DNA of 64,000 bases from Ostreococcus lucimarinus (taxonomy: Eukaryota): NCBI GenBank assembly GCA_000092065.1, contig CP000594.1; one strand, written 5' to 3'. Both the position numbers and the translations under genes were made by a program. This document shows, piece by piece, positions 28,653 through 31,092 of the stretch. A model generated the notes under the pieces. That model ran no database searches. It saw only the letters and a program-made list of their open reading frames with translations, and was not told where the DNA came from. The stretch's first letter is position 1. Every line of letters starts with the position of its first letter.

Positions 28653-31092
28653 CTATTTGTTGTTGCTTTCGGCTTCGGAAATTTTTCTGAGAGCCTCCTT
28701 TTGAGACGCGTCGAACGCGTGCTGCATGTCTCGCTCGTTCCAACGCAAACATCTTCGAAGCGAATTGATGAAATCGCCCGTTTGATCGGCGTAGTTGATG
28801 GTGGGAATCGGGTATTGGCTCATGCGGACGAACACGGAATCCCCGCTCTCGAGCTCGCAGCGATCGCGGCCGTCGAAGGAGACCCAGGCGGAACATCGAG
28901 CGTCTTGCGCAACGCGTAGCTCGATTTCGACGCTGTCGGGGAAAATGACGGGTCGGAAAGACAGCGTGTGTGGGCAAATCGGAGTCATCAAGATTGCTGG
29001 AACGTTCGGGTGCACCATCGAACCTCCAGCGGACACGCTGTAAGCAGTGGAACCGGTGGCGGTGGCGACAATGACGCCGTCGGCTTGAATAGTCGTGATG
29101 AGTTCTCCGCGATCGTACGCCTCAATTTGAGATAAATACGGACTTGGACCTCGATCAACGAGCAACTCATTCAAGACGGTGATCTTTTTCGTGAATTCGC
29201 CCGTTCCACCGCTTCCGATCTTGTCCTTTGCCTTGACCAGTGTACACTCGAGACGCATGCGAAGCGTAATCGGCACGCCTCCTTGGATGTTCACCACGGG
29301 CTTCCCTCGTCCGATGGATTGAAGCAAGCTCGAAGCCATTTCGTCCGATGGGTGGCTTGTCAAAAACCCGAGCGAGCCGAAATGGAACCCCGAGAAGCGG
29401 CGGCACTGGCCCTTGGAATAACTTGCTCGCGTGCAGGATGACGCCGTCACCGCCCAAACACACGATGATATCAGTTGTACCCCAGTCCTCTTGAGGGATG
29501 ATGCCGTCCACTTTGCGCAGTTTTTCGGCATTTTTTAAAACTACCGCTCTGTGCAGGGTGTCTTCGAGGATGTCTGCGTTCGCCAATTCATCCATGACGT
29601 CTTCGTCGAGGACGACGGTGATCCCCATCGTCATCATCGCGTGCGCGATCTCTATGAGTTCTGGCAGCAGGCCAAAGCCAATCTTCTTCAGTAAGAAAAC
29701 ACGCCGCGGTTGTTGACGCCATACCAATATCAATTGTTGCGTGCTCGGGTGAGATATCTTCAGTTCCCGGTTCTCGACGAGCTCGCGCGTGCACGAGAAA
29801 CCGTCGGTTCGAATTATGTACATATCCGGAGCGTCCGTCAGAGAGCTGTGTTCGCCAACGACAATTTCTTCCCCGTTTGCAGTACTATCGAATTCATGAT
29901 CCGCGATAAACTTTTCTCCGTTGAATGTCTTGTTATTCAACTTCGCGGCGTACTCGCGAACAAACGCCTCCTGTGCGATCGATCCGAAGTCGCACACGAG
30001 CGATTCAGCCGAGAGCGCCTCGTCGACGTCCATTCCTTGGTGCACACGCCAGCACGCGACGAGTGATCCGGTCCGTCCAATTCCAGCTTTACAGTGCACC
30101 AGGATCGGTCGCATCTTGTCATCGTTTACAGTCTCGATGAATCGTTTCACATCCTCCTCCGTCGGCGGCTCCATGTCGGGAATCGGTATGTGTACGATGT
30201 TGAGCGCGCTCGCGCCGAACGTCCCTTGGCCCGAGCCTCCCCCGAACGCTTGTAGCCACTGGTTATCTCTATCGCTCCCGCGCAAATCGATGACAGTTTT
30301 GAAGTTGTTGCGAACCAGCCAAGCTCGACCTTCCGCGGTGGGCTGCCCTCCTCGATAATACGCCGCAGCGCTCTCGTCGCCAACTTCGGTGACGATTTGC
30401 AAGTTTGGGATCGCCGTTCCGCTCGGCGCGTTCGGCGCGCGTAATCGCGGATGCACCAAGTCCAGCGACGCGCTTCGAAGCGCCTCGAAGCGATGCCGCA
30501 CCGTTACCGAGCATCCGCCGATCTCTTCGCACGACTGTTCCAGTATCACTCGCAACTCCCACAGCGCCGTGCGAAGACGCGACAACTCCTTACTTCGCAA
30601 GTTGTTACTGAACCTCCCGGCGACTTCCGCGGCGGACGCGTACACGACCATCCTCCCCAACGCCTCCGTCACCTCTCCCGAGCATGAAGCGAGCGTGTTA
30701 TTCGAAAAGTCCACCTCGCACTCCGCCGATAAGACGTCGGCGAACGACGCCAGCACCGCGCGTTCTAATTGCGCCGCCAACTGCGGCAACGGGACGTAAC
30801 TCTGATCCGAGGTCGAAGGAAACTCCACGACATCTCCCTTTTCCTGTTTCTTCGCCCCGGTATCGACCGACGGGAACATTTCAGACTCTGAAATCGCGCG
30901 TCGCTCGCCGCCGCCTCGACCTCGCGACGCGTCCCGCGCGTTCGGGCGCGCACCTCCGAAGGCCGAGCGCCGTCCGGGCAAATGCGCGCGCCGCGCCGTC
31001 ACTGTGCATACATTAGACCGTTCACGCGCGAGTTTCGTCGTCGACGACGCGCTGACGCGCGATGCCGCGGCGATCATCGTCCCGCTCGCCAT
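28653..31092 (-). CDS. NADK: NAD kinase with N-terminal dual-specificity-phosphatase-like domain and organelle-type presequence; the reading frame is broken by an apparent 1-nt indel near 29388..29391
   Basis: Track ORF 29167..31092 carries the DSP active-site loop VHCKAGIGRTGSLVACW (HCxAGxGR) and the NADK motifs CLGGDGVILHASKLFQGPVPPLLG. Track ORF 28653..29531, in another frame, continues FHFGSLGFLTSHP...DGVIVATATGSTAYSVSAGGSMVHPNVPAILMTPICPHTLSFRP. Removing one G from the GGGG run (plus CCCC at 29388..29391) gives the contiguous conserved ...VPPLLGFHFGSLGFLT... Confidence 0.8.

What the first reader, a model, noticed from the sequence alone, without database searches (positions are those of the whole stretch)
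29380..29400. Apparent +1 frameshift in the NAD kinase coding sequence at a GGGG/CCCC homopolymer
The NADK catalytic core is split between two overlapping track ORFs in different frames. Conserved motifs run without interruption across the break (…GGDGVILHASKLFQGPVPPLLG | FHFGSLGFLTSHP…). There is therefore no room for an intron. Deleting one G of the run at 29388..29391 restores the universal VPP(V/L)(M/L)xF.LGSLGFLT block. This is either a 1-nt assembly error, or a genuine inactivating mutation or programmed frameshift in an otherwise intact gene.
Basis: seen in the sequence. Interest (0 to 1): 0.55.

Follow-up and report, generated by a model that had tools for sequence, protein, structure and literature searches.

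The report
One-base assembly error splitting NAD kinase
The chloroplast-type NAD kinase gene of the green picoalga Ostreococcus lucimarinus is split in this assembly by one extra G, but independent sequencing of the same clone and 26 wild relatives lack that G, so it is almost certainly a sequence error and not biology.

Summary
On the minus strand a GGGG run (CCCC at 29388..29391 on the + strand) splits a NAD kinase gene into two overlapping ORFs, 29167..31092 and 28653..29531. Removing one G gives a single 812-aa ORF that aligns without gaps to human NADK across the junction.

The window is Ostreococcus lucimarinus CCE9901 chromosome 14, and the gene is OlNADK2 (AtNADK2 type). All 28 independent contigs that cover the site have GGG.

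Two of these come from runs that are genomic DNA of the same clone: 0 mismatches over 8,074 bp, and 1 each over 14,246 and 17,541 bp. The missing G is their only indel against the window.

The exact window haplotype in intact form is on 39 public contigs; the broken ORFs are on none. The deposited protein XP_001421435.1 already reads straight through the junction in the corrected frame.

Nothing else in the gene is degraded, and no relative shares the shift. Best explanation: a single-base insertion artefact in the Sanger-era reference (about 0.9). A real mutation private to the sequenced DNA is about 0.08. Programmed frameshifting is about 0.01. Interest is low.

By-products: the deposited gene model lacks 499 N-terminal codons, and two other suspect sites were seen in the window.

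The parts
28653..31092 (-). Full-length single-exon NADK2-type gene (OlNADK2). It is 812 codons plus stop once one base of the GGGG run is removed, and as it stands it is split into two frames.
   Evidence: It is 99% identical to the intact 807/812-aa proteins P0001, P0046, P0047 and P0089.
29388..29391 (-). GGGG run (CCCC on the + strand) holding the one extra base. All other assemblies have GGG.
   Evidence: All 28 distinct contigs show 3 G. This is the only indel private to the window among the 50.6 kb covered by at least 3 contigs, apart from the ZIP patch.
29167..31092 (-). ORF A, 641 aa: transit-peptide-like N-terminus, PTP-NADK domain, and the first part of the kinase domain up to PPLLG, followed by 73 out-of-frame codons.
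   Evidence: The exact product is not in the 15-billion-protein collection.
28653..29531 (-). ORF B, 292 aa as listed. It is homologous from FHFGSLGFLT onwards (rest of the kinase N domain plus NAD_kinase_C), and its first 50 or so codons are out-of-frame read-in.
   Evidence: The exact product is not in the collection.
29953..30426 (-). PTP-NADK domain (PF22741, residues 223-380), with the CX5R motif HCKAGIGRTG at 30067..30096.
   Evidence: E 3.5e-53, full-length profile match 1-163 of 163; coordinates.
29325..29652 (-). NAD_kinase N-terminal domain (PF01513, residues 481-589). It spans the junction. GGDG lies at 29443..29454 and the PPLLGFHFGSLGFLT block at 29358..29403.
28794..29174 (-). 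NAD_kinase C-terminal domain (PF20143, residues 640-766). VLNELLVDRG lies at 29148..29177 and TGSTAYSVSAGG at 29022..29057.
28656..29595 (-). Extent of the deposited model XP_001421435.1 / ABO99728.1 (313 aa, residues M500-K812 of the corrected protein). It crosses the junction in the corrected frame.
   Evidence: exact sequence match; Li et al. 2014 Table S1: OlNADK2, 313 aa, JGI e_gwEuk.14.189.1.

Best explanation
The fourth G is a single-base insertion artefact in this reference assembly of Ostreococcus lucimarinus CCE9901 chromosome 14. It could be a base-calling, compression or clone error in G+C-rich Sanger-era sequence.

The organism most likely has GGG here. It would then make one uninterrupted 812-aa (or 807-aa) protein. 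That protein has an N-terminal targeting-like region, a PTP-NADK phosphatase-like domain and a complete NAD kinase. It is the alga's only subfamily II (AtNADK2, chloroplast-type) NAD kinase.

No frameshifting, editing or pseudogenisation is involved.

Shown here: the extra base is private to this assembly, and the same clone sequenced independently lacks it. Inferred: the cause is technical rather than a mutation in the DNA preparation that was sequenced.
For: (1) The window is CCE9901. Window 12363..13721 encodes exactly XP_001421216.1, and the corrected NADK residues 500-812 are exactly XP_001421435.1. Both lie on the 708,927-bp record.

(2) All 31 fetched loci covering the site have GGG. 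They represent 28 distinct contigs from 28 samples (ENA, JGI, Tara, Logan).

(3) Two runs are the same clone. SRR1179203 shows 0 mismatches over 8,074 bp (L044) and 1 over 17,541 bp (L020). SRR23274481 shows 1 over 14,246 bp (L043) and 1 over 13,783 bp (L021). Environmental contigs differ at about 0.2-0.5%. These two runs are the only ones carrying the strain-specific 51-aa handle at 31345..31500. Against both, the only indel is the missing G.

(4) Those runs are genomic DNA. They are colinear with the window through a GT..AG intron at about 17477..17650.

(5) The exact window haplotype in intact form (P0089, 807 aa) is on 39 Logan contigs. The 641-, 636- and 292-aa broken products are on none. 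In 13 loci (11 distinct contigs) the 2.44-kb coding DNA is identical to the window apart from the G.

(6) The gene shows no other decay. Every catalytic motif is intact.

(7) Rates. The window has 2 private differences in 33,379 bp of same-clone comparison. The measured rate of real change in cultured O. tauri is 11 changes per 12.9 Mb per about 6,000 generations. That predicts 0.028 changes in this span, so P(>=2) is about 4e-4. The O. tauri Sanger reference itself needed 3,342 indel and 2,126 base corrections (PMC4378021).

(8) The genome has only two NADK genes, and this is the only subfamily II one (PMC4072752). A null allele would be expected to be costly in a phototroph.

(9) The depositors' own protein reads PPLLGFHFGSLGFLT across the site.
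Against: I could not see raw reads of the original project, so the cause (technical or biological) of the extra base in that DNA is inferred, not observed.

I could not find out what SRR1179203 and SRR23274481 are. They could be a sister sub-line or an almost identical isolate rather than the very culture that was sequenced. In that case the extra G could be a real change on the reference's own lineage.

SRR23274481 also has one private base (35958), so near-clonal lines do differ slightly, or Logan contigs carry rare errors.

The O. lucimarinus reference was finished to a higher standard than the O. tauri one, so the O. tauri error rate is only an upper guide.

Real gene-disrupting indels did fix in cultured O. 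tauri, although in apparently dispensable membrane proteins.
Confidence: 0.9

Rival explanations
1. A genuine one-base insertion is present in the DNA that was sequenced for the reference. It would be a very recent inactivating mutation of OlNADK2, fixed in that sub-culture (for example through a cloning bottleneck). It would be absent from other stocks of the clone and from wild populations. The cell would then survive on the other NADK (subfamily IV, chromosome 2) or on residual activity.
For: The base is in the assembly. Real frameshift and nonsense mutations did fix in cultured O. tauri within about 6,000 generations (PMC4378021). The gene is otherwise undamaged, which fits a very recent event as well as it fits an error. 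A second NADK gene exists. Arabidopsis nadk2 mutants are viable (PMC10324968 abstract).
Against: Two independent genomic runs of the same clone lack the base.

The expected number of real culture changes in the 33 kb compared is about 0.03, yet the window has two private differences. That points to a technical source for private differences in general.

A null allele of the only chloroplast-type NADK should be selected against in phototrophic bulk culture. The O. tauri authors argue that transfer bottlenecks of about 6e5 cells prevent fixation of deleterious mutations.

The broken products are found in no other data set.
Confidence: 0.08
2. A programmed +1 ribosomal frameshift, or transcriptional slippage or editing at the G run, restores the frame. 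On this reading the gene is functional as written and the shift is regulatory.
For: A glycine tRNA on GGG could in principle re-pair with the overlapping GGG one base downstream (inference from the sequence CUC GGG GUU). The two halves are otherwise perfectly conserved.
Against: A programmed shift site is conserved among orthologues. Here none of the 28 contigs at 99.5-100% identity has the shift, nor the same clone, nor any orthologue at 50-87% identity. All encode one continuous frame.

The heptamer does not match known eukaryotic +1 sites (Ty1/ABP140 CUU AGG C, antizyme UCC UGA U; from my own knowledge). No slow or stop codon follows in the zero frame, since GUU is next. A four-base run is too short for known transcriptional slippage.
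Confidence: 0.01
3. The two ORFs are separate exons or separate genes, either a split NADK or a tiny intron at the junction.
For: None beyond the existence of two ORFs.
Against: The motifs run without a missing or extra residue across the junction, so only a 1-nt 'intron' would fit, which splicing cannot do. ORF B has no homologous start. All relatives have one ORF.
Confidence: 0.005

Closest known systems
Arabidopsis NADK2 and the plant/algal NADK subfamily II (chloroplast NAD kinase); Pfam architecture PF22741 PTP-NADK + PF01513 + PF20143
   Same: The domain order is the same: a full-length PTP-NADK match (E 3.5e-53) followed by both NAD kinase domains. Li et al. 2014 place OlNADK2 in subfamily II with AtNADK2. 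The GGDG, NE/D and TGSTAY..AGG motifs are all present.
   Different: As written in this assembly the frame is broken after residue 568. The deposited model covers only the last 313 residues. Localisation and activity have not been tested in Ostreococcus.
Human cytosolic NADK (PDB 3pfn, 9cr3, 8kgc)
   Same: E about 1e-77 over about 290-310 residues. The alignment is gap-free through the junction, VPPLLGFHFGSLGFLT against VPPVMAFHLGSLGFLT.
   Different: Human NADK lacks the PTP-NADK domain and the targeting-like N-terminus.
Reference-assembly indel errors in Sanger-era Ostreococcus genomes (O. tauri re-sequencing, Blanc-Mathieu et al. 2014, PMC4378021)
   Same: A single-base indel in G+C-rich sequence is contradicted by Illumina data from the same strain. 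In O. tauri 3,342 such indels were corrected, against 3 real indels in about 6,000 generations.
   Different: This is a different species and a better finished reference. Here the contradiction comes from public contigs, not from a read pile-up on the original DNA.
Programmed +1 ribosomal frameshifting (antizyme, Ty1, ABP140/EST3, bacterial prfB)
   Same: One extra base separates two halves of a conserved protein. A repetitive codon pair could allow tRNA re-pairing.
   Different: There is no conservation of the shift in any relative, no known shift heptamer, and no stop or rare codon to pause the ribosome (and the sequence).

Membership tests
NAD kinase (PF01513 + PF20143) | Significant match to both the N-terminal and C-terminal NAD kinase domains | tested here: met
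   PF20143 at 3.8e-36 and PF01513 at 1.5e-11 (both above the gathering score) in the corrected protein. E about 1e-77 to human NADK structures.
NAD kinase (PF01513 + PF20143) | Catalytic motifs GGDG, NE/D (VLNE..DRG) and the glycine-rich TGSTAY..AGG | tested here: met
   GGDG at residues 547-550, VLNELLVDRG at 639-648, TGSTAYSVSAGG at 679-690.
NAD kinase (PF01513 + PF20143) | One continuous reading frame through the catalytic core | tested here: not met
   Not met in the window as written. Met after removal of one G, and met in all 28 other contigs, including the same clone.
PTP-NADK fusion / plant NADK subfamily II (AtNADK2 type) | PF22741 domain with the CX5R phosphatase signature upstream of the kinase | tested here: met
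   PF22741 at 3.5e-53, profile 1-163 of 163. HCKAGIGRTG at residues 333-342. Subfamily II assignment by Li et al. 2014.
PTP-NADK fusion / plant NADK subfamily II (AtNADK2 type) | Chloroplast localisation and NAD+ kinase activity | not testable with these tools
   The only indication is a Ser/Ala/Arg-rich N-terminus, which is suggestive at most. No experiment exists for Ostreococcus.
Programmed +1 ribosomal frameshift site | The shift is conserved in orthologues | tested here: not met
   every orthologue and every near-identical contig is in one frame.
Programmed +1 ribosomal frameshift site | A known shift-prone heptamer with a slow or stop codon in the A site | tested here: not met
   The sequence CUC GGG GUU CCA has no stop or known hungry codon. 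The comparison with known heptamers rests on my own knowledge.
Pseudogene (decaying gene) | Further disabling changes or relaxed constraint besides the first lesion | tested here: not met
   the coding DNA is identical to intact copies in 13 loci (11 distinct contigs) apart from the G; where the window differs from P0001 in a conserved stretch (HAMMTMG), the window has the residue shared by the more distant orthologues.
Assembly or sequencing artefact | The variant is absent from independent sequencing of the same clone | tested here: met
   SRR1179203 and SRR23274481 contigs, 0-1 mismatch per 8-17.5 kb, both carry GGG.
Assembly or sequencing artefact | The variant is not supported by the original reads | not testable with these tools
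   The trace archive of the CCE9901 project is not available here.

The most novel reading that the evidence does not exclude
The extra G is real in the sequenced CCE9901 stock. A free-living photosynthetic picoeukaryote would then have been growing with a null allele of its only chloroplast-type NAD kinase. That would imply plastid NADP+ is supplied another way, by dual targeting of the subfamily IV kinase or by NADP import.
Probability: 0.08. Interest if true: 0.45.

Novelty: not a real feature. Interest (0 to 1): 0.07.

Why it matters
It matters mainly for housekeeping. The reference chromosome of a widely used model picoalga most likely carries a one-base error inside its chloroplast-type NAD kinase.

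The public protein for that gene (XP_001421435.1, 313 aa) lacks the first 499 residues, including the whole PTP-NADK domain. Comparative studies that used this model (for example the 313-aa OlNADK2 entry in Li et al. 2014) therefore under-describe the gene.

Correcting the base and the model gives an 812-aa protein, in line with other Mamiellophyceae.

Had the frameshift been real, it would have raised the question of how the plastid gets NADP+. The evidence does not point that way.

Tried and rejected
(a) An intron or split gene was rejected. The alignment to human NADK is gap-free, so only a 1-nt gap would fit.

(b) A second NADK copy or a duplication in the window was rejected. Self-BLAST finds no repeats, and tblastn finds only this locus.

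(c) I tried to identify runs SRR1179203, SRR1179204 and SRR23274481 from the literature. No paper mentions them.

(d) I tried to read the OlNADK2 row at the junction in Figure S1 of Li et al. 2014. The stored machine-read text is garbled, with identical strings repeated down rows, so I did not use it.

(e) I looked for same-clone contigs across the rest of the window. Window products 43539..45104, 3841..6057, 51023..51670 and 51669..52730 are not on record. The same-clone comparison therefore covers only 33.4 kb (6181..23721 and 25663..41500). 1..6180 and 60571..64000 have no comparison at all.

(f) The 392-aa gene allele turned out to be too common to serve as a strain-specific handle. It still added 9 further distinct contigs, all with GGG.

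(g) I did not run structure prediction, further homologue searches or RNA tools, because they would not bear on the question of error versus mutation.

Full report
**What is in the sequence.** The gene lies on the minus strand. The + strand reads AAATGGAACCCCGAGAAGCGG at 29380..29400, so the run is CCCC at 29388..29391 and GGGG in the coding sense.

- ORF A (29167..31092, 641 aa) carries the protein up to ...CLGGDGVILHASKLFQGPVPPLLG and then runs on for 73 unrelated codons.
- ORF B (28653..29531, 292 aa as listed) becomes homologous at FHFGSLGFLTSHP....
- Deleting one G gives one 812-aa ORF without internal stops.
- Its kinase part matches human NADK structures at E about 1e-77. The alignment has no gap at the junction: VPPLLGFHFGSLGFLT against VPPVMAFHLGSLGFLT.
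- Pfam finds a full-length PTP-NADK domain (PF22741, 3.5e-53, residues 223-380), NAD_kinase N (residues 481-589, spanning the junction) and NAD_kinase_C (residues 640-766).

**Whose gene it is.** The neighbouring diphthamide-synthase ORF (12363..13721) encodes exactly XP_001421216.1 of Ostreococcus lucimarinus CCE9901. The amidohydrolase next door clusters with XP_001421402.1. Both are on a 708,927-bp record. The window is thus CCE9901 chromosome 14.

Li et al. 2014 (PMC4072752, Table S1) list two NADK genes in this genome:

- OlNADK1: chromosome 2, subfamily IV, Pos5-like.
- OlNADK2: XP_001421435.1, JGI model e_gwEuk.14.189.1, chromosome 14, subfamily II (the AtNADK2 chloroplast type), given as only 313 aa. 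The O. tauri orthologue is 721 aa and the Micromonas one 988 aa.

Residues M500-K812 of my corrected protein are exactly 313 aa. That exact string is XP_001421435.1 / ABO99728.1 / UniRef A4S7D7. The deposited protein therefore already reads PPLLGFHFGSLGFLT across the junction.

If the deposited chromosome has the same four G, the CDS must skip one base. That is what a genewise-type model does with a suspected sequence error. This step is inference, because I could not see the feature table. The model also misses 499 N-terminal codons that lie in the same ORF.

**Is the extra G shared by anything else?** A homologue search with the corrected protein found intact proteins only. These range from 99% identity (P0001) through 78-87% (other Ostreococcus-like lineages) to Micromonas and Bathycoccus.

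I fetched DNA for 31 loci that cover the site. They represent 28 distinct contigs from 28 samples in ENA, JGI, Tara and Logan. Every one has GGG.

The exact window haplotype with one G removed (807 aa from the second Met, P0089) is on 39 Logan contigs. The 641-, 636- and 292-aa broken products are in none of about 15 billion records. In 13 loci (11 distinct contigs) the 2.44-kb coding DNA is base-for-base identical to the window apart from the G.

**The same clone, sequenced independently.** Most contigs differ from the window at 0.2-0.5%, but two runs do not.

| Run | Locus | Window span | Length compared | Mismatches |
|---|---|---|---|---|
| SRR1179203 | L020 | 6181..23721 | 17,541 bp | 1 |
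| SRR1179203 | L044 | 25663..33737 | 8,074 bp | 0 |
| SRR23274481 | L021 | 9939..23721 | 13,783 bp | 1 |
| SRR23274481 | L043 | 27254..41500 | 14,246 bp | 1 |

To reach them at the NADK locus I used a strain-specific handle. This is a 51-aa called ORF at 31345..31500 that spans three positions where every environmental contig differs from the window. Only these two runs carry it.

Against both runs the only indel is the missing fourth G. They are genomic DNA, not spliced RNA. They are colinear with the window through a clear GT..AG intron of a two-RRM gene at about 17477..17650.

Over the 33,379 bp of same-clone comparison the window has two private differences. One is this G. The other is a C at 18567, where both runs and an environmental contig have G.

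**Error or real mutation?** Sequence alone cannot see the original reads, but the rates are informative.

In the sister species O. tauri, Illumina re-sequencing of the same strain led to correction of 2,126 single bases and 3,342 indels in the Sanger reference. [quoted passage not shown]

At that real-change rate, 0.028 events are expected in 33 kb. The chance of two or more is about 4e-4. So the window's private differences as a class are far better explained as reference errors.

Three further points agree with an artefact or a brand-new event, and the third argues against the latter:

- The gene shows no other damage.
- Where the window differs from P0001 in a conserved stretch (HAMMTMG), the window keeps the residue shared by the more distant orthologues.
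- It is the only subfamily II kinase in a phototroph with just two NADK genes.

Caveats remain. I could not establish what the two runs are. SRR23274481 has one private base of its own (35958). The O. lucimarinus reference was finished better than the O. tauri one. Real frameshifts did fix in cultured O. tauri, though in seemingly dispensable genes.

I put the artefact at about 0.9 and a real private mutation at about 0.08.

**Programmed frameshifting.** A glycine tRNA could in principle slide from GGG to the overlapping GGG. A programmed site, however, is conserved, and here no relative at any distance has the shift. That includes the same clone. No stop or known slow codon follows, and the heptamer is unlike known eukaryotic +1 sites (that last point rests on my own knowledge). 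I give this about 0.01.

An intron is impossible, because no residue is missing or extra at the junction. There is no duplication or second NADK in the window.

**General control on the assembly.** Across the 54.4 kb of the window covered by fetched contigs, I listed every position where all covering contigs disagree with the window.

Most are substitutions in stretches covered only by environmental contigs, and these may simply be alleles of this strain. Where the same-clone runs do cover such positions (around 25.7-41.5 kb), they carry the window's base. Among indels only two places are private to the window:

- The NADK G.
- A patch in the ZIP-transporter gene (51776..51805). There the window has three separate extra C/G bases in a (CG)n stretch, for a net change of +3. 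The window protein reads SLV-RARAPRTARR-GGDEG where all nine other contigs read SLV-ARARAHGAR-GGDEG.

The ZIP patch looks like the same kind of problem, but I could not obtain same-clone contigs there.

**Verdict.** The biology is ordinary. This is an intact, single-exon, 812-aa PTP-NADK-type NAD kinase whose reference sequence most likely carries one spurious G. The useful by-products are a corrected full-length gene model and two further suspect positions in the reference.

Noticed in passing
window 18567 (gene 18068..19804, + strand, GPHR_N/ABA_GPCR family): This is a second difference private to the window. The window has C (Ser167). Both same-clone runs (L020, L021) and the environmental contig L004 have G (Cys167). 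The window's 578-aa product is not on record, while the Cys version (P0106) is. It is probably another reference error.
   Followed up: partly
window 51776..51805 (ZIP transporter gene 51669..52730, + strand): The window has three separate extra C/G bases within 30 nt of a (CG)n stretch relative to all nine covering contigs. The net change is +3, which gives a 10-residue out-of-frame patch (RARAPRTARR against ARARAHGAR). It could be a cluster of compression-type errors or a real compensated frameshift in a signal-peptide region. No same-clone contigs were obtained here.
   Followed up: partly
window 28653..31092 (minus strand) against XP_001421435.1: The deposited OlNADK2 model is 313 aa and starts at M500. 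The same ORF continues 499 codons upstream and contains the complete PTP-NADK domain, as in the 807-813-aa orthologues. Published comparative tables use the truncated length.
   Followed up: yes
window 26738..28522 (minus strand): The amidohydrolase (PF07969) is a clean 594-aa ORF, identical to P0074 on 44 contigs. The CCE9901 entry XP_001421402.1 is a 485-aa 'partial' model of it.
   Followed up: partly
window ~17477..17650 (minus strand), gene ~16821..17860: A GT..AG intron of about 170 nt splits a two-RRM protein gene: ...ATGGACG|GTGCGT...CGCAG|GCACGCCG, reading MDG|TPLGDRTITV. Prokaryote-style gene calls on the metagenome contigs report the two exons as separate 72-aa and 208-aa genes.
   Followed up: partly
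window 52730..53150 and 47150..47300; MFS gene 54592..56331 (minus strand): Two intergenic stretches are very rich in indels among otherwise 99.5-99.9% identical contigs. Most of the contigs shown that carry the window's exact MFS sugar-transporter protein are only 3-4 kb long. They end near 53.4-53.8 kb and 56.7-56.8 kb, as if assemblies break on both sides.
   Followed up: no
L043 (SRR23274481), window position 35958: This run has A where the window and all environmental contigs have C. The difference is private to that run. It is either a real change in that sub-line or a contig error.
   Followed up: no
gene at window 33218..34396 (minus strand, 392 aa, no Pfam hit): Its CCE9901 model is a 264-aa fragment that carries two accession pairs (ABO99698.1/XP_001421405.1 and ABO99729.1/XP_001421436.1). 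The window has no duplication of the region, so this may be a duplicated gene model in the deposited annotation.
   Followed up: partly
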